Source: Escherichia coli (lineage in GTDB: Bacteria; Pseudomonadota; Gammaproteobacteria; Enterobacterales; Enterobacteriaceae). Taken from it: a DNA stretch of 12,912 nucleotides. Location of the stretch: the NCBI RefSeq assembly GCF_003334305.1, contig NZ_QOWS01000042.1, one strand, 5' to 3'. Positions 1,728 through 12,727 of this stretch are shown in pieces; the stretch's first letter is position 1, and every line of letters begins with the position of its first letter. The notes below the pieces were generated by a model. That model was not told the DNA's origin. It saw only the letters and a list, made by a program, of their open reading frames with translations, and made no database searches. The translations under genes and the position numbers were made by a program.

Positions 1728-2628
1728 CCGTTCCTCCGTTGGTTACGCTCCACTGCGTACATGATGCCGCCTGTGTTTTGTTCAGGACCACATCCGCCAG
1801 AGGAGAAGCCAGCTCCACACGCTGCACCCCCTCAACATGCAGGGCGGCAAAAATGGCGCTACGGCGAATATCCCGACCAAGACGCGTCTGACTGGCGATG
1901 TACTTCTGCAGGCTGGCTTTTGCCGCTGCCATTACCGGCTCTGCTTCCGGTCCAGGATAGAGAAAAATGGTGGCTTCCACGCGATACGGGATGATTTCTG
2001 CGCTGCGAACCGTAAGACGGTCAGCCACCGGGCGGACGTTCTCACTGTTCAGAGCTTTTTCCACCACGTCCAGCAGGTCTTTTTCTGCAGTTCCATCGCC
2101 TTCGCGGCTAAGGACAGTCAGCACCACCTCTGCAGGTGCCGGGCTGGTTGCACTGGCATCCGCCACCCGACCGTCGGCGCTTCGGGCATGAAATTCATAA
2201 GCTGCAGTTGGCCCCGCAACAGAAAGCCCTTCAAAGGCCGCAGGCACACGCAGGCGCAACGCTTCATCGCTTTCCATCACAGCTGCAACGGGCGGCACAG
2301 CATCATTATCAGCAGGCGTCACCGTCAGGCGTGTCACGTTGTAGTTGGCAGCGAGCTGGTCAAGATCGCCGCCCATCGCGTAAGCCACCATCACCGCCTG
2401 CGCGGCTTCGTTAATGCGCTGGCGCAGAAGCAACTCACGGTAAGCGTTCTCCTGCAACAATTTAGTGGCGGGTTCAGATTCCAGTTCCAGCGTGCGGATC
2501 ACTGCTTCCTGCTCATCTTTCGGATGAAGCGCCACAAATTCTGCCTTGCGTTCGGCAAGCAGCGTCTCAAAGTCCGGCACATCCACAATCTGCGGTGCAG
2601 GCAACTGCGAAAGGTCAATCACTGCCAT
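1720..2628 (-). CDS. J: Baseplate protein, P2 gpJ-like
   Basis: The ORF track extends to a GTG at 2667, but the ATG at 2628..2626 is preceded by AGGAG with a 6-nt spacer and gives 302 aa starting MAVIDLSQLPAPQIVDVPDFETLLAERKA, the length recalled for P2 gpJ. It overlaps the W stop. Confidence 0.85.
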   Translation of the reverse strand: MAVIDLSQLPAPQIVDVPDFETLLAERKAEFVALHPKDEQEAVIRTLELESEPATKLLQENAYRELLLRQRINEAAQAVMVAYAMGGDLDQLAANYNVTRLTVTPADNDAVPPVAAVMESDEALRLRVPAAFEGLSVAGPTAAYEFHARSADGRVADASATSPAPAEVVLTVLSREGDGTAEKDLLDVVEKALNSENVRPVADRLTVRSAEIIPYRVEATIFLYPGPEAEPVMAAAKASLQKYIASQTRLGRDIRRSAIFAALHVEGVQRVELASPLADVVLNKTQAASCTQWSVTNGGTDE

Positions 2629-2974
2629 TCTCTGCTCCTGTTGATACGGAAAGGGACACAGGCACACCGTTATTCCGCCGCCCGGTCAGCTCCACCACCA
2701 TTGAACCGTCAAAATTGCTGTTGATGGTGATGGAATCCAGCGTCAACCGTGGCTCCCAGCGACTCAGCGCCACATACACTGCCGACATGACCTGCAGGCG
2801 TAATGCCGGATTTTGTGGCTGATCTATCAGTGCCGACAGCAGGGAACCATATTCCCGGCGGGCAATACGGCTACCCTGCGGTGTCAGCAGAATGTCCCGC
2901 ACCGACTGGCGCAGATGATCAATATCAGTAATGACTTTGCCGCTGGTATTGTTCATCCCGCTATAAAGCGTCAT
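2615..2974 (-). CDS. W: Baseplate protein, P2 gpW-like (gp25-type)
   Basis: 119 aa starting MTLYSGMNNTSGKVITDIDHLRQSVRDILLTPQGSRIARREYGSLL, similar in length and sequence to P2 gpW as recalled; its ATG (2974..2972) overlaps the V stop (ATGA). Confidence 0.85.
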   Translation of the reverse strand: MTLYSGMNNTSGKVITDIDHLRQSVRDILLTPQGSRIARREYGSLLSALIDQPQNPALRLQVMSAVYVALSRWEPRLTLDSITINSNFDGSMVVELTGRRNNGVPVSLSVSTGAENGSD

Positions 2975-3549
2975 ATCGGGCCTCCGGTTGTATCGCCGCC
3001 TTTCAGGACGCCAGTATGCTGATGCGCATCAACCACGATCCCGTTAGAACTCATCGCTCCGCCGCCCTGGGTAACGCCACCATTGATCACCACTTCGCTG
3101 TTAATGCGCGTGCGGTCAGCCTCCAGTACAAACTCACTGGTTTTCATGGTGATGTTGTCAGCAGCCTCAATGACCATGGATTTGATGCCCCTGACATACC
3201 AGCGCCCGGTGGCGGGTTCGTATTCAAACCAGCCACCGTCAGGATGTTCTGTCACGCAGGCGTCCGCCGACGTCGACGGTGGTGCGAACTGATTCGAATA
3301 GACAGCGGGCAGCGCAAAGGCGGTTTCCAGATTGCCGCCCAGACTCAGCAGCACCACCTGCTCACCTTCCGATGGTCGCCACCATGTACGGGCATTCCCG
3401 GCACGCAGCGTCAGCCAGCTGATCCAGTTGGTTTCAAGCTCGCCCGTTTTCACCCGGCAAAGCCAGTTTTCCCTGTCCACTTCGGTGACTACCCCTGTGC
3501 GGATCAGGTTGGTGATAAGGCGCATGATTTCGGTTAATTGTGCGTTCAT
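2971..3549 (-). CDS. V: Baseplate spike/hub protein, P2 gpV-like
   Basis: 192 aa starting MNAQLTEIMRLITNLIRTGVVTEVD, with RTWWRPSEGEQV and a C-terminal ...HQHTGVLKGGDTTGGPI resembling P2 gpV as recalled; ATG at 3549..3547. Confidence 0.85.
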   Translation of the reverse strand: MNAQLTEIMRLITNLIRTGVVTEVDRENWLCRVKTGELETNWISWLTLRAGNARTWWRPSEGEQVVLLSLGGNLETAFALPAVYSNQFAPPSTSADACVTEHPDGGWFEYEPATGRWYVRGIKSMVIEAADNITMKTSEFVLEADRTRINSEVVINGGVTQGGGAMSSNGIVVDAHQHTGVLKGGDTTGGPI

Positions 3550-3595: not shown

Positions 3596-3613
3596 TGTAT
3601 CAGTGCTGATACA
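3596..3613 (-). promoter_or_regulatory. Candidate late-promoter activator site (Ogr/Delta-type TGT-N12-ACA dyad) upstream of V
   Basis: Sequence TGTATCAGTGCTGATACA, part of the perfect palindrome TTGTATCAG-TG-CTGATACAA, lies between the S stop (3618) and the V start (3549). It matches the TGT-N12-ACA consensus of P2/P4 late promoters and sits where the P2 V promoter is expected. Confidence 0.5.
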
Positions 3614-3617
3614 AAGA

Positions 3618-4064
3618 TCACCCCGCCAGCCATTGCAGAATCATGTCGCGGGTCATTGCCTCAACATCATCATTTACACCCAGAAGGCGACGCTCTGCGT
3701 AACGCACCTCCGGTCCCTTACGACTGACGCGATCTCGCAGGCCGTAATGGTGAACGCGGGCAATGCGCTGCACCTTGCCTTCAAACTGCACGCTGGCAGA
3801 GTCGGTGCTGGCGGCAGTTTTCAGGTATTTTGTGGTGCGCAGCTTTGCAAACATCTGACGTTTGATGCGCCCCTTCTTGCTGCGTGCTGTTACCCTGCGC
3901 GGTTCATAACTGCTGCCATCTGGATTGCGCTGCATCCTGATATTCTGCTGCTGTGTCCGGCGCAGTTCCTGCGCCAGCTGGCGCATCATGCGGCTTCTCG
4001 TGGCTGGTTCCAGATTCGCCAGCAAGGCACTCAGCCAGTCGTCCACCTTCTGCAGTTCAGCCAC
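3618..4064 (-). CDS. S: Tail completion protein, P2 gpS-like
   Basis: 148-aa ORF in the P2-equivalent position between R and V. The only start in frame is GTG at 4064..4062, preceded by GGTGA, and it overlaps the 3' end of R by 8 nt. Called mainly on synteny and size. Confidence 0.75.
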   Translation of the reverse strand: MAELQKVDDWLSALLANLEPATRSRMMRQLAQELRRTQQQNIRMQRNPDGSSYEPRRVTARSKKGRIKRQMFAKLRTTKYLKTAASTDSASVQFEGKVQRIARVHHYGLRDRVSRKGPEVRYAERRLLGVNDDVEAMTRDMILQWLAG

Positions 4065-8591: not shown

Positions 8592-9425
8592 TCAGCAATT
8601 GGTCAGAGTGTCAGCGGGGGCGTTACCGCCTGTTGCACGCTGGCGGTAGTCCTGGCGGCTGTCTTCATGACTCAGCTTATTCACCAGTTCGTTAAAGGCG
8701 GTCTGCTGTGCCTGCAGGGCAGTCTCCAGCTCAGACAGACGTTCTTCCTGCTCAGACAGGGATTTTTCGGTGCGTGCGCTCAGGTTTTGCTGCTCAGTGG
8801 CGACCAGCTCCACGGCCTTATGCACATCAGAGAACCGGGCATCGTCGGACTGCTCTTTTTTGGTAAACAGCGCCGTGACACGGGCAAACAGGGACGGTTT
8901 GTCCTCCTGGATTTCTTCCAGTTCGATCACTGTTTCCTCTGCGGCGGTAAAGAGATTGGCGGGATTCTGCTTGCGGTTTGCCAGCGGGTTATGGGCTGCA
9001 CTGGCGCTGAATGTCAGCATTTCCGTACCCAAACTGGCAGGGTCATCAGTGGCAGCCAGGCCGACCAGGTAGGCTTTGCCCGTATCAGCGAACTTCGGGC
9101 TGACTTCCATAGAGGTGAATAATTTCTGGCCTTTTTTCACCAATTCCACCAGGGACTCCGTTGGCTCAACGTCGGCATACAGCGCCATCTTGCCTGCCAG
9201 CGGGCCTTCCGTGATTTCTTCAGCAAACAGCGCCGTCACCTTGCCGTAACGGTTAAAGGTGCTGTCCGGGAGATAAGACTTGATGTGCTCAAGGTTAATC
9301 AGCGCGGTATACACCGCCGGGTTGTAGCTGGCTGCCATCTGTTCCAGCCATTCACGCTGGATTTCGCGTCCGTCGGTGGTGGCACCTTCCACCCCGATGC
9401 GAAAACGCTTTGCTTTCACTGTCAT
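8592..9425 (-). CDS. O: Capsid scaffolding protein, P2 gpO-like
   Basis: 277 aa starting MTVKAKRFRIGVEGATTDGREIQREWLEQMAASYNP, the same size class as P2 gpO (~284 aa); ATG at 9425..9423 is preceded by GGAG. Confidence 0.9.
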   Translation of the reverse strand: MTVKAKRFRIGVEGATTDGREIQREWLEQMAASYNPAVYTALINLEHIKSYLPDSTFNRYGKVTALFAEEITEGPLAGKMALYADVEPTESLVELVKKGQKLFTSMEVSPKFADTGKAYLVGLAATDDPASLGTEMLTFSASAAHNPLANRKQNPANLFTAAEETVIELEEIQEDKPSLFARVTALFTKKEQSDDARFSDVHKAVELVATEQQNLSARTEKSLSEQEERLSELETALQAQQTAFNELVNKLSHEDSRQDYRQRATGGNAPADTLTNC

Positions 9426-9502
9426 GAGCCGTGCTCCGTTAGAAATAACTTACTGGAGCCTTATGGTTGCGGTGATGGGGGCAGTGAAACAATGCGCGGT
9501 AT

Positions 9503-9520
9503 TTGTACCGACAACCACAC
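9503..9520. promoter_or_regulatory. Candidate late-promoter activator site (TGT-N12-ACA) in the O/P divergent intergenic region
   Basis: TGTACCGACAACCACACA is the only TGT-N12-ACA match in the 142-bp region between the O start (9425) and the P start (9568), where the P2 divergent late promoters for P and O are expected. Confidence 0.45.
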
Positions 9521-9567
9521 AAACCGCAGGCGGGGAAAGCCTTCATTCAAGGCTGTAGGTTTGTGCC

Positions 9568-11334
9568 ATGAACACCACACTGACACCCGCAGATCTCGAT
9601 CCCCGTCGGCAGGCCATGCTGCTGTACTTTCAGGGATACCGCGTAGCCCGCATTGCTGAAATGCTGGGCGAGAAAGTTGCAACCGTTCACAGCTGGAAGA
9701 AACGCGACAAGTGGGGTGACTATGGGCCGCTGGATCAGATGCAGCTCACCACCGCCGCACGTTACTGCCAGCTCATTATGAAGGAGCACAAAGAAGGGAA
9801 AGATTTCAAAGAAATTGACCTGCTGGCGCGCCAGTCGGAGCGCCACGCGCGGATCGGCAAGTTTAACAATGGCGGCAACGAAGCCGACTTAAACCCTAAC
9901 GTCGCCAACCGCAACAAAGGCCCGCGCCGTCAGCCGGAAAAGAATGTTTTCACCGATGAACAGATAGAGAAACTGGAAGAAATCTTCCATTCCTCCATGT
10001 TCAACTACCAGCGCCACTGGTGGGAAGCCGGAAAAACCAACCGCATCCGCAACCTGCTGAAGTCACGCCAGATCGGCGCGACCTTTTACTTTGCCCGTGA
10101 AGCCCTGATTGACGCCCTGCTTACCGGACGTAACCAGATTTTCCTTTCTGCCAGTAAGGCACAGGCTCACGTCTTTAAGCAGTACATCATCGACTTCGCC
10201 AAAGAAGTCGAGGTGGAGCTGAAAGGCGATCCGATGGTGCTTCCTAACGGGGCCACGCTTTACTTCCTCGGCACCAATGCCCGCACGGCGCAGAGTTACC
10301 ACGGCAACCTGTATCTGGATGAATATTTCTGGATACCGAAATTCCAGGAGTTGCGCAAAGTGGCTTCCGGTATGGCTATTCACAAGAAATGGCGACAAAC
10401 CTATTTTTCCACGCCATCCAGCCTGACCCACAGTGCTTATCCGTTCTGGTCCGGTGCGCTGTTCAACCGTGGACGCAACAAAGCTGACAAGGTGGACATC
10501 GACCTGTCCCACAGCAATCTGGCCCCCGGCCTGCTGTGCGCAGACGGGCAATACCGCCAGATAGTCACCGTGGAAGATGCGGTGCGCGGCGGCTGTAACC
10601 TGTTCGACCTCGACCAGCTGCGCATGGAGTACAGCCCGGACGAATACCAGAACCTGCTGATGTGCGAGTTCGTGGACGATCTCGCGTCCGTGTTCCCGCT
10701 CAGCGAACTGCAGGCGTGCATGGTGGACAGCTGGGAAGTCTGGACCGACTTTCATGCACTGGCCCTGCGCCCGTTTGGCTGGCGCGAAGTGTGGATCGGT
10801 TATGACCCGGCAAAAGGTACGCAGAACGGCGACAGTGCCGGATGCGTGGTGGTGGCTCCGCCAGCCGTGCCGGGTGGTAAGTTCCGCATTCTTGAGCGTC
10901 ACCAGTGGCGCGGGATGGACTTCCGCGCCCAGGCTGACGCCATCAAAAAACTGACCGAACAGTATAACGTGACCTATATCGGTATCGACTCGACCGGCGT
11001 CGGTCACGGGGTTTACGAGAACGTGAAAGCGTTTTTTCCTGCTGTCCGGGAGTTTGTCTATAACCCCAACGTTAAAAACGCCCTGGTACTCAAGGCCTAC
11101 GACATTATCAGCCACCGCCGTCTGGAGTTTGACGCCGGGCACACCGACATTGCGCAGTCATTTATGGCAATCCGTCGCGCTACCACTGCCAGTGGCAACC
11201 GCCCGACCTATGAAGCCAGCCGCAGCGAAGAAGCCAGCCATGCCGATCTGGCCTGGGCAACAATGCACGCACTGTTTAACGAACCGCTGCAGGGCGAGTC
11301 CGCCAATACCAGCAATATTGTGGAGATTTTTTGA
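9568..11334 (+). CDS. P: Terminase large (ATPase) subunit, P2 gpP-like
   Basis: 588 aa (P2 gpP is ~590) starting MNTTLTPADLDPRRQAMLLYFQGYRVARIAEMLGEK. It diverges from O and is followed by Q with a TGATG stop/start overlap. Confidence 0.9.
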   Translation: MNTTLTPADLDPRRQAMLLYFQGYRVARIAEMLGEKVATVHSWKKRDKWGDYGPLDQMQLTTAARYCQLIMKEHKEGKDFKEIDLLARQSERHARIGKFNNGGNEADLNPNVANRNKGPRRQPEKNVFTDEQIEKLEEIFHSSMFNYQRHWWEAGKTNRIRNLLKSRQIGATFYFAREALIDALLTGRNQIFLSASKAQAHVFKQYIIDFAKEVEVELKGDPMVLPNGATLYFLGTNARTAQSYHGNLYLDEYFWIPKFQELRKVASGMAIHKKWRQTYFSTPSSLTHSAYPFWSGALFNRGRNKADKVDIDLSHSNLAPGLLCADGQYRQIVTVEDAVRGGCNLFDLDQLRMEYSPDEYQNLLMCEFVDDLASVFPLSELQACMVDSWEVWTDFHALALRPFGWREVWIGYDPAKGTQNGDSAGCVVVAPPAVPGGKFRILERHQWRGMDFRAQADAIKKLTEQYNVTYIGIDSTGVGHGVYENVKAFFPAVREFVYNPNVKNALVLKAYDIISHRRLEFDAGHTDIAQSFMAIRRATTASGNRPTYEASRSEEASHADLAWATMHALFNEPLQGESANTSNIVEIF

Positions 11335-12376: not shown

Positions 12377-12727
12377 TTATTTGTTTCTTCTTTGTTCACG
12401 CCTTGTCTTGGCTTCGATAAGGCGTTGAGGTTCAGTGTAAAGCCGTTCTAAAAAAAGATAGGTAAAATCTTCAAGATCCTCAGCAGCAGCTTTATCCAAA
12501 ATACCTTCATGCGCTCCATCATTTCCGTCATCTTTAACGCATTCAGCTAGTTCCCTTAAAGCTTCAGGCAGTAGATGATTATCAAATAACCACTCCATTC
12601 TTAACCCTAGGCTTCTCCTTATTTTTTGCGCAGGCCCTTGCTCCCCATCAGGAAGAAGTCCTTTTGTGGCATAATCAAGGCAAAGCCTAAACATGGTTGC
12701 TGCTGCATTATAACAACCTATAGCCAA
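12377..12727 (-). CDS. Hypothetical small acidic protein in low-GC cargo next to the portal gene; possibly HEPN/DUF4145-like (speculative)
   Basis: 116-codon ORF in ~40-45% GC DNA, convergent with Q (stops 8 bp apart). The TTG at 12727 is preceded by GAGGAAGGGG with an 8-nt spacer; the first ATG is at 12694. No homologue recognised with confidence; the motif GNDGAHEG and a helical, acidic composition are the only hints. Confidence 0.5.
   Translation of the reverse strand: MAIGCYNAAATMFRLCLDYATKGLLPDGEQGPAQKIRRSLGLRMEWLFDNHLLPEALRELAECVKDDGNDGAHEGILDKAAAEDLEDFTYLFLERLYTEPQRLIEAKTRREQRRNK

What the first reader, a model, noticed from the sequence alone, without database searches (positions are those of the whole stretch)
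9426..9567. Only one activator-type dyad in the divergent O/P promoter region
The divergent P and O late promoters are each expected to have an activator site, but I find a single TGT-N12-ACA (9503-9520) in the 142-bp region. Its centre is ~86 bp from the O ATG (a reasonable leader for the O promoter) and ~56 bp from the P ATG. Either the P promoter uses a degenerate site that I did not detect, or one site serves both directions, or the P start lies further downstream (for example at Met17, about 9616).
Basis: partly seen in the sequence, partly recalled or inferred. Interest (0 to 1): 0.3.

Follow-up and report, generated by a model that had tools for sequence, protein, structure and literature searches.

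The report
Shared late-activator site; leaderless terminase gene
The single dyad between the divergent head genes O and P of this P2-like E. coli prophage is the ordinary shared late-activator site known from phages P2 and 186, but it sits so close to P that the terminase mRNA is predicted to start on its own ATG, with no leader.

Summary
The TGT-N12-ACA dyad is at 9504-9521, centre 9512.5, which is 87.5 bp from the O ATG and 55.5 bp from the P ATG. The premise that each divergent promoter needs its own site is wrong. The P2 and 186 records each annotate one activator site for both head promoters. In P2 it lies 55.5 bp from both mapped transcription starts, which are 111 bp apart. A weight matrix finds no second, properly placed site. 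The Met17 start is refuted: Met17 is not conserved in relatives, and codons 2-16 evolve as coding sequence.

It equals the activator-to-start distance of P2 late promoters, including P2 gene V, whose annotated transcript start is the first base of its ATG. In the window a -10-like TAGGTT ends 6 nt before the P ATG, and the Shine-Dalgarno match is weak or absent.

This geometry is kept in Fels-2, three Klebsiella phage genera, Yersinia and Arsenophonus phages, and at least nine further viral-contig lineages. P2, 186 and similar phages instead have a 16-23 nt leader with a strong ribosome-binding site.

Verdict: a known kind of shared site. P is predicted to be leaderless; this is inferred, not mapped. 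Interest is modest.

The parts
9504..9521 (.). Shared late-activator (Ogr/B-type) binding dyad TGT-N12-ACA, centre 9512.5, predicted to serve both the O and the P promoter
   Evidence: Exact match. Top weight-matrix hit in the window at 20.9 bits. Same position in Fels-2, Klebsiella and Yersinia relatives. Orthologous in position to the single annotated sites of P2 and 186.
9556..9561 (+). Predicted -10 element of the P promoter (TAGGTT; TATGTT in most relatives)
   Evidence: Falls in the same columns as the TAGCCT hexamer upstream of the mapped P2 pP start and in 186 p12 when promoters are anchored on the dyad centre. A TAnnnT hexamer ending 6 nt before the ATG is kept in seven lineages, although the 6-nt gap sequence differs.
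9568..9568 (+). Predicted transcription start of the P-Q operon, which is also the A of the P start codon (leaderless mRNA). Inferred, not mapped.
   Evidence: 55.5 bp from the dyad centre, the same as the mapped P2 pP, pO and pV starts. It is the seventh base after the -10 hexamer. The first 20 nt of the predicted RNA are unpaired in the minimum-energy fold.
9568..11334 (+). Gene P (terminase ATPase/large subunit); start codon ATG at 9568
   Evidence: ORF list. tblastn homology from residue 1-3 onward to P2-family gpP. RefSeq annotation of a 100% identical E. coli prophage starts at the same base. Codon-level evidence.
9463..9468 (-). Candidate -10 element of the O promoter (AACCAT; AAACAT in relatives). 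The predicted start is about 9454-9457, giving a leader of about 29-32 nt.
   Evidence: Position follows from the 55.5-58.5 bp spacing of mapped P2 and 186 starts. The block is conserved in relatives. The exact hexamer and start base remain uncertain.
9434..9437 (-). Shine-Dalgarno GGAG of gene O, 8 nt before its ATG
   Evidence: Read directly from the sequence.
8592..9425 (-). Gene O (GPO-family capsid scaffold/protease), first gene of the leftward head-lysis operon
   Evidence: ORF list; annotations of Fels-2 and E. coli A7.
3596..3613 (.). Activator dyad of the V promoter (perfect palindrome TGTATCAGTGCTGATACA), centre 55.5 bp from the V ATG at 3549. Internal comparator with the same geometry as P.
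   Evidence: P2 gene V has its annotated transcript start on the first base of its CDS.
2971..3549 (-). Gene V (baseplate assembly protein), predicted leaderless as in P2

Best explanation
The dyad at 9504-9521 is the binding site of the prophage's Ogr/B-family zinc-finger late activator. One symmetric site sits about 55 bp upstream of two back-to-back, activator-dependent promoters. The leftward one transcribes O and the head-lysis genes. The rightward one transcribes P and Q. This is the arrangement of P2 (pO/pP) and 186 (pV/p12).

The orthology of the site and the one-site arrangement are shown by comparison with annotated relatives. The next step is inferred. In this lineage the P start codon lies exactly where the P2-type geometry puts the transcription start. 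P would therefore be translated from a leaderless mRNA beginning with AUG, as is established for P2 gene V and predicted here for the window's own V gene. The O transcript keeps a leader of about 30 nt with a GGAG ribosome-binding site.

A plausible but speculative consequence is low translation of the terminase relative to the scaffold and capsid proteins.
For: One-site arrangement
- P2 record: one 'activator binding site; pO, pP promoters'. The dyad 3063-3080 has centre 3071.5; the P start is 3016 and the O start 3127, both 55.5 bp away.
- 186 record: one B-protein site 'activation of pV and p12 promoters', with promoter features ending 55.5 and 56.5 bp from the dyad centre.
- The Smp131 paper gives PP' and PO' as the same 18 bp read in both orientations (PMC3931495).
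- Weight matrix: 9504-9521 scores 20.9 bits. There is no second site at a usable position.
- No sigma-70 consensus promoter lies in 9300-9700.
- The window is 100% identical to an E. coli A7 prophage next to ssrA. That prophage encodes an ogr/Delta-like zinc-finger protein 55% identical to P2 Ogr. It carries exactly three exact dyads placed for four late operons: F at 85.5 bp from its ATG, V at 55.5 bp, and the shared O/P site.

Leaderless P
- P2 V has its annotated transcript start on the first base of its CDS, 55.5 bp from the centre of its annotated activator site. P2 is cited as a source of leaderless genes (PMC4633059).
- In the window both P and V have dyad centre to ATG = 55.5 bp.
- TAGGTT sits in the -10 columns of P2 pP.
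- Dyad-to-P-ATG distances fall into two classes. One is 55.5-57.5 bp, with a TAnnnT hexamer 6-7 nt before an ATG and a weak or absent Shine-Dalgarno match. It includes the window, Fels-2, three Klebsiella genera, a Yersinia phage, an Arsenophonus element and nine or more viral-contig lineages. The other is 71.5-78.5 bp with a strong GAGG-type Shine-Dalgarno. It includes P2, 186, PSP3, Reipivirus and Reginaelenavirus.
- The P-side distance is invariant while the O-side distance varies from 85.5 to 97.5 bp.
- The start codon is fixed at 9568 by an upstream in-frame stop, by coding-type variation and by homology.
- The 5' 20 nt of the predicted RNA are unpaired.
Against: - No transcription start has been mapped for this phage or any Fels-2-type relative that I could retrieve, so the start position rests entirely on geometry.
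- Mapped P2 and 186 starts range from 55.5 to 58.5 bp from the dyad centre. A start 1-3 nt downstream of 9568 would exclude the ATG, and a start 1-5 nt upstream would give a very short leader.
- In the window itself, though not in most relatives, AGGT at 9557-9560 could pair weakly with 16S rRNA 7 nt before the ATG (duplex -5.6 kcal/mol).
- Leaderless mRNAs are generally poorly translated in E. coli, and P is essential.
- The P2 and 186 'one site' evidence used here comes from GenBank feature annotation. The primary papers were not available in the library.
- The activator gene lies outside the window.
Confidence: 0.65

Rival explanations
1. The shared site is real, but the P transcript starts a few to about 15 nt upstream of the ATG. 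That would mean a short leader, with the activator closer to the start than in P2. Translation would use the weak AGGT at 9557-9560.
For: AGGT lies 7 nt before the ATG in the window, with a duplex energy of -5.6 kcal/mol. Start positions in mapped relatives vary by up to 3 bp.
Against: Relatives replace AGGT with ATGT (TATGTT) or other TAnnnT hexamers, which keeps a -10 pattern but not a Shine-Dalgarno. The sequence where an alternative -10 would lie (9542-9550) is not conserved. The 6-7 nt gap between hexamer and ATG is invariant across lineages.
Confidence: 0.15
2. The P promoter has its own degenerate activator site further left, for example the half-site 9474-9491. It would make a leadered mRNA, and the 9504-9521 dyad would serve only O.
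For: 9474-9491 scores 6.4 bits, within the top 0.1% of window positions, and the AACAA block it contains is conserved.
Against: Only one half-site matches (GAT...ACA). A start 55 bp to its right (about 9538) has no TAnnnT hexamer upstream. The block is better explained as the -35 region of the O promoter, since it lies about 21 bp from the dyad centre. P2 and 186 use one site.
Confidence: 0.05
3. Transcription starts near 9568, but P translation begins downstream (Met17 at 9616 or later), so 9568-9615 is a 5' leader.
For: An ATG exists at 9616.
Against: Met17 is Leu or Ala in Klebsiella and Yersinia relatives. There is no Shine-Dalgarno before 9616. Codons 2-16 vary four synonymous to one non-synonymous, and indels are multiples of three. 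tblastn homology to P2-family gpP starts at residues 1-3. The conserved DPRRQA motif lies upstream of Met17.
Confidence: 0.04
4. The dyad is a chance match with no function.
For: The bare 6-base pattern occurs at chance frequency in the window.
Against: Weight-matrix outlier. Positional conservation down to distant relatives. Orthology to the annotated P2 and 186 sites. The same spacing at the V gene.
Confidence: 0.01

Closest known systems
Phage P2 divergent late promoters pO/pP with one Ogr site (NC_001895 features 3016, 3057-3087, 3127)
   Same: Divergent O and P genes. One dyad between them (TGT-N12-CCA in P2). Activator of the Ogr family. -10 hexamer of TAGNNT type on the P side. Predicted starts 111 bp apart, each 55.5 bp from the dyad centre.
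   Different: P2 has a 173-bp intergenic region and a 23-nt P leader with a GAGG ribosome-binding site. The window has 142 bp, a perfect TGT-N12-ACA, and no room for a P leader.
Phage 186 pV/p12 promoters with one B-protein site (NC_001317 feature 3798-3817)
   Same: A single annotated protein-binding site that activates both divergent head promoters, at the same spacing.
   Different: 186 keeps the 23-nt leader and a strong ribosome-binding site on the P-homologue (orf12) side.
Phage P2 gene V leaderless late mRNA
   Same: Ogr-type site about 55.5 bp upstream of an ATG that is also the transcript start. A weak -10 hexamer 6-7 nt before the ATG. No ribosome-binding site.
   Different: In P2 this is mapped and applies to the baseplate operon. 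Here the same geometry is predicted for the terminase gene as well, on one arm of a bidirectional promoter.
Lambda cI mRNA from pRM (classical leaderless mRNA)
   Same: A 5'-terminal AUG used for initiation.
   Different: Different activator and promoter class, and a lysogenic rather than late gene. It shares only the mode of translation initiation.

Membership tests
P2-type late promoter activator site (Ogr/B/Pag/delta-dependent) | Partial dyad TGT-N12-ACA | tested here: met
   Exact match at 9504-9521; 20.9 bits with a matrix built from relatives' sites.
P2-type late promoter activator site (Ogr/B/Pag/delta-dependent) | Centred about 55 bp upstream of the transcription start | not testable with these tools
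   No mapped 5' ends were found. The geometry fits: TAnnnT hexamers lie where a start 55.5 bp from the centre requires them.
P2-type late promoter activator site (Ogr/B/Pag/delta-dependent) | Lies upstream of the first gene of a late (morphogenetic) operon | tested here: met
   Lies between O and P. The other strong site is upstream of V. In the identical E. coli A7 prophage a third site is upstream of the sheath gene.
P2-type late promoter activator site (Ogr/B/Pag/delta-dependent) | The same phage encodes a cognate Ogr-family C4 zinc-finger activator | tested here: met
   Not inside the window. The E. coli A7 prophage that matches the window with 0 mismatches over 12,912 bp encodes an ogr/Delta-like protein. 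It is 55% identical to P2 Ogr and has the CX2C-X22-CX4C motif. Fels-2 encodes one too.
P2-type late promoter activator site (Ogr/B/Pag/delta-dependent) | Core promoter without a good -35/-10 consensus, as expected for activator dependence | tested here: met
   No sigma-70 consensus matches in 9300-9700. This is weak evidence.
P2-type late promoter activator site (Ogr/B/Pag/delta-dependent) | Activator binds the site and is required for transcription | not testable with these tools
   Needs footprinting, EMSA or reporter assays.
Shared bidirectional activator site (P2 pO/pP, 186 pV/p12) | A single site between the divergent scaffold and terminase genes, with no second site | tested here: met
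   Mismatch and matrix scans of 9426-9585. The 9562-9579 match is not conserved beyond the Fels-2 genus.
Shared bidirectional activator site (P2 pO/pP, 186 pV/p12) | Both starts equidistant from the dyad centre (about 55.5 bp each, 111 bp apart) | not testable with these tools
   Predicted starts are 9568 (+) and about 9454-9457 (-). They are not mapped.
Leaderless mRNA (lambda cI, P2 V) | The transcript 5' end coincides with the A of the start codon | not testable with these tools
   Inferred from the 55.5 bp spacing and the position of the -10 hexamer.
Leaderless mRNA (lambda cI, P2 V) | The start codon is AUG | tested here: met
   ATG in the window and in every lineage of the 55.5-57.5 bp class examined.
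Leaderless mRNA (lambda cI, P2 V) | -10 hexamer immediately upstream of the ORF (6-7 nt gap) | tested here: met
   TAGGTT, TATGTT, TAGCCT, TATGCT or TAACGT 6-7 nt before the ATG in all lineages of that class.
Leaderless mRNA (lambda cI, P2 V) | No Shine-Dalgarno sequence upstream of the start codon | tested here: inconclusive
   Relatives range from +1.2 to -5.6 kcal/mol; where pairing is predicted it is too far from the ATG, as in OXA48phi12.1. The window has a possible weak AGGT (-5.6 kcal/mol). Leadered relatives reach -6.5 to -11.8 kcal/mol.

The most novel reading that the evidence does not exclude
In Fels-2-type prophages, and in many other P2-like phages, the terminase large-subunit gene is expressed from a leaderless mRNA. 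This DNA is present in 1086 of 5426 complete E. coli genomes. One symmetric activator site would then drive a bidirectional promoter pair with one leadered arm (scaffold and capsid) and one leaderless arm (terminase and portal). The well-studied 23-nt P leader of P2 and 186 would be the minority architecture. The leaderless arm could set the low terminase-to-structural-protein ratio at the level of translation initiation.
Probability: 0.6. Interest if true: 0.4.

Novelty: new member of a known kind. Interest (0 to 1): 0.3.

Why it matters
The puzzle of a single site for two promoters is not a puzzle. It is the standard P2/186 design, and this locus is another example of it.

The useful by-product is a specific, testable prediction. 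In a prophage family present in about one fifth of complete E. coli genomes, and in Salmonella Fels-2/SopEPhi and many Klebsiella prophages, an essential late gene (terminase) would be translated from a leaderless mRNA.

If confirmed, this would add a widespread natural example to the short list of enterobacterial leaderless mRNAs. It would show that one activator-dependent promoter type is used with and without a leader in sister lineages. It would also correct several database start-codon calls. It does not change what is known about Ogr-type activation.

Tried and rejected
- Second degenerate dyad. Mismatch scans (up to 2 mismatches) and a 22-bp weight matrix over 9426-9585 gave only shifted copies of the main site, the 9562-9579 match over the ATG (not conserved in Klebsiella or Yersinia relatives), and the half-site 9474-9491. 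Rejected.
- Met17 start. Rejected on conservation and codon evidence.
- Alternative -10 elements for a start 10-15 nt upstream of the ATG. The DNA there is not conserved.
- Experimental transcription-start data. I looked for Salmonella dRNA-seq tables covering SopEPhi, but no supplementary files are held for PMC5856525.
- Primary papers. Julien and Calendar 1995 (PMC177091), Pountney et al. 1997 (PMC2144757) and Pelludat et al. 2003 (PMC181011) are not held. The P2 and 186 evidence therefore rests on GenBank feature tables and on secondary citations.
- Prior reports of a leaderless terminase in P2-like phages. The library search found nothing relevant. The library is incomplete, so prior description cannot be excluded.
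- The first viral-contig scan returned only near-identical relatives. A second scan, seeded with a diverse alignment, was needed to get diversity.

Full report
**What the window is.** The window carries the late region of a P2-like prophage: O at 8592-9425 (-), P at 9568-11334 (+), Q after it, and V at 2971-3549 (-). It is 100% identical, with 0 mismatches over 12,912 bp, to a prophage next to ssrA in E. coli strain A7. Its closest phage records are Escherichia phages 500465-1 and Cartapus, at about 99%. The Fels-2 group is about 92% identical in the O/P intergenic region. The same DNA occurs in 1086 of 5426 complete E. coli genomes.

**Check of the observation.** Its centre, 9512.5, is 87.5 bp from the O start codon and 55.5 bp from the P ATG. 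The six-base pattern alone is not significant: the window has 4 matches against 3.4 expected.

A 22-bp weight matrix trained on eleven sites from relatives, with no window site, separates two positions from everything else. These are 9504-9521 at 20.9 bits and the V-gene site 3596-3613 at 19.8 bits. The next best position scores 11.5 bits. The dyad is kept at the same position in Fels-2 and in three Klebsiella phage genera whose intergenic DNA is about 76% identical. It is also kept in Yersinia phage YenM_56.17, whose first 150 P residues are 57% identical to the window's. The site is real.

**One site for two promoters is the known design.**
- The P2 RefSeq record annotates a single 'activator binding site; pO, pP promoters' at 3057-3087. 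The P transcript start is at 3016 and the O start at 3127. The dyad inside that feature, TGT-N12-CCA at 3063-3080, has its centre at 3071.5, exactly 55.5 bp from both starts.
- The 186 record annotates one B-protein site (3798-3817) for 'activation of pV and p12 promoters'. The two promoter features end 55.5 and 56.5 bp from the dyad centre.
- A paper on the P2-like phage Smp131 lists PP' and PO' as the same 18 bp read in both orientations (PMC3931495).
- The identical E. coli A7 prophage encodes an ogr/Delta-like zinc-finger protein 55% identical to P2 Ogr. It has exact dyads placed for the four late operons at only three sites: F, V and the shared O/P site.

**The other two alternatives fail.**
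- No second site. Scans allowing up to two mismatches, and the weight matrix, find nothing else at a usable position. The half-site 9474-9491 (6.4 bits) has no -10-like hexamer where its promoter would need one. The 9562-9579 match is lost in the Klebsiella and Yersinia relatives.
- Met17 is not the start. It is Leu in two Klebsiella relatives and Ala in the Yersinia phage. Among close relatives, codons 2-16 show five variable sites, four of them synonymous. More distant relatives differ by 3-nt indels. The peptide is homologous to the N-terminus of P2 gpP: MNTTLTPADLDPRR against MTITTDTTLLHDPRR.
- An in-frame TAG at 9556-9558 forbids any earlier start. RefSeq's annotation pipeline also starts P at 9568.

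**What the 55.5 bp means.** I anchored all promoters on the dyad centre. The mapped P2 pP start, the P2 pO start and the P2 V start all fall in the column 55.5 bp from the centre. The 186 p12 feature ends in that column and the 186 pV feature one base later. In the window that same column holds the A of the P ATG. TAGGTT (9556-9561) occupies the columns of the TAGCCT -10 hexamer of P2 pP and 186 p12.

P2 gene V is annotated with its transcript start on the first base of its CDS, so it is leaderless. P2 is cited among the few sources of enterobacterial leaderless genes, with reference to Christie and Calendar 1985 (PMC4633059). The window's own V gene has the same 55.5 bp spacing.

The best reading is that the P-Q transcript begins at 9568 and is leaderless. 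The O transcript begins at about 9454-9457 and has a leader of about 30 nt with a GGAG ribosome-binding site.

**Comparative support.** Across lineages the distance from dyad centre to P ATG falls into two classes.
- 55.5-57.5 bp. A TAnnnT hexamer lies 6-7 nt before an ATG, and pairing with the 16S rRNA 3' end is weak or absent (+1.2 to -5.6 kcal/mol; up to -7.1 among the viral-contig lineages). This class holds the window, Fels-2, Gegevirus, Dagavirus, Gegavirus, Yersinia YenM_56.17, an Arsenophonus element, and at least nine more viral-contig lineages.
- 71.5-78.5 bp. A strong GAGG-type Shine-Dalgarno is present (-5.9 to -11.8 kcal/mol), and the -10 hexamer sits at the same distance from the dyad. 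This class holds P2, 186, PSP3, FSL SP-004, Kp4852-2, Reipivirus, Chuche and Reginaelenavirus.

The P-side distance is fixed while the O-side distance drifts from 85.5 to 97.5 bp. That is expected if promoter geometry itself dictates where the ATG sits. Most relatives have TATGTT where the window has TAGGTT, so the conserved pattern is a -10 and not a Shine-Dalgarno. The first 20 nt of the predicted RNA are unpaired in the minimum-energy fold.

**Caveats.** No 5' ends are mapped for this lineage. Mapped starts in P2 and 186 vary by up to 3 bp relative to the dyad. The window itself has a possible weak AGGT 7 nt before the ATG. The 'one site' evidence comes from GenBank feature tables, because the primary papers are not in the library. 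A library search found no earlier report of a leaderless terminase mRNA in P2-like phages, but the library is incomplete.

**Verdict.** The dyad is an orthologue of a known, shared Ogr/B-type activator site, which is ordinary. I put about 0.9 on the shared site and about 0.6-0.7 on a leaderless P. The added prediction is a modest, testable variant of known P2 biology, and the overall interest is about 0.3.

Noticed in passing
window 9562-9579: A second exact TGT-N12-ACA (TGTGCCATGAACACCACA) straddles the P start codon and scores 10.6 bits. It is kept in close E. coli relatives, appears as TGG...ACA in Fels-2, and is lost in the Klebsiella and Yersinia relatives. It is probably a by-product of the coding sequence. 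If it were bound it would sit on the predicted P start.
   Followed up: partly
window 3596-3613 and V ATG at 3549: The V promoter dyad is a perfect 18-bp palindrome (TGTATCAGTGCTGATACA) whose centre is 55.5 bp from the V ATG. CAACCT lies 6 nt before the ATG and there is no ribosome-binding site. V is predicted leaderless, as mapped in P2.
   Followed up: partly
window 12665-12682: The third-best weight-matrix hit (TTTGTGGCATAATCAAGGCAAA, 11.5 bits) lies downstream of Q, within the 12377-12727 (-) ORF that E. coli A7 annotates as a DUF4145 gene. It could be chance or a late-regulated cargo promoter.
   Followed up: no
window 9486-9497 and 9529-9539: Two conserved blocks, GAAACAATGCGC and GGCGGGGAAAG, lie about 21 bp either side of the dyad centre, in the -35 regions of the two predicted promoters. 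They are conserved in relatives about 76% identical but do not resemble each other or TTGACA.
   Followed up: partly
L041 and L043 (IMG/VR loci), upstream of position 600: Two viral contigs lose homology inside the O/P intergenic region. In L043 the break is inside the dyad. P is left without its promoter partner, which suggests truncated or rearranged prophages.
   Followed up: no
L003 (MK433581.1), L096 (CP038625.1), L097 (DQ426904.1): Annotated P start codons disagree with the conserved ATG: 9 nt downstream in Klebsiella phage ST258-KPC3phi16.1, a GTG 27 nt upstream (inside the promoter) in the Arsenophonus element, and a TTG 15 nt upstream in Mannheimia PHL101. Gene callers looking for a ribosome-binding site that is not there would produce this.
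   Followed up: partly
L100 (E. coli A7, NZ_CP028767.1) 2268-3183: The identical prophage carries a gene for a reverse-transcriptase-domain protein and a small ORF between ssrA and ogr. These may be retron-like cargo at the prophage end.
   Followed up: no
window 11331-11334: The P stop codon and the Q start overlap by one base in the RefSeq annotation of the identical prophage. This suggests translational coupling of the portal gene to the terminase gene, so a leaderless P would also set Q output.
   Followed up: no
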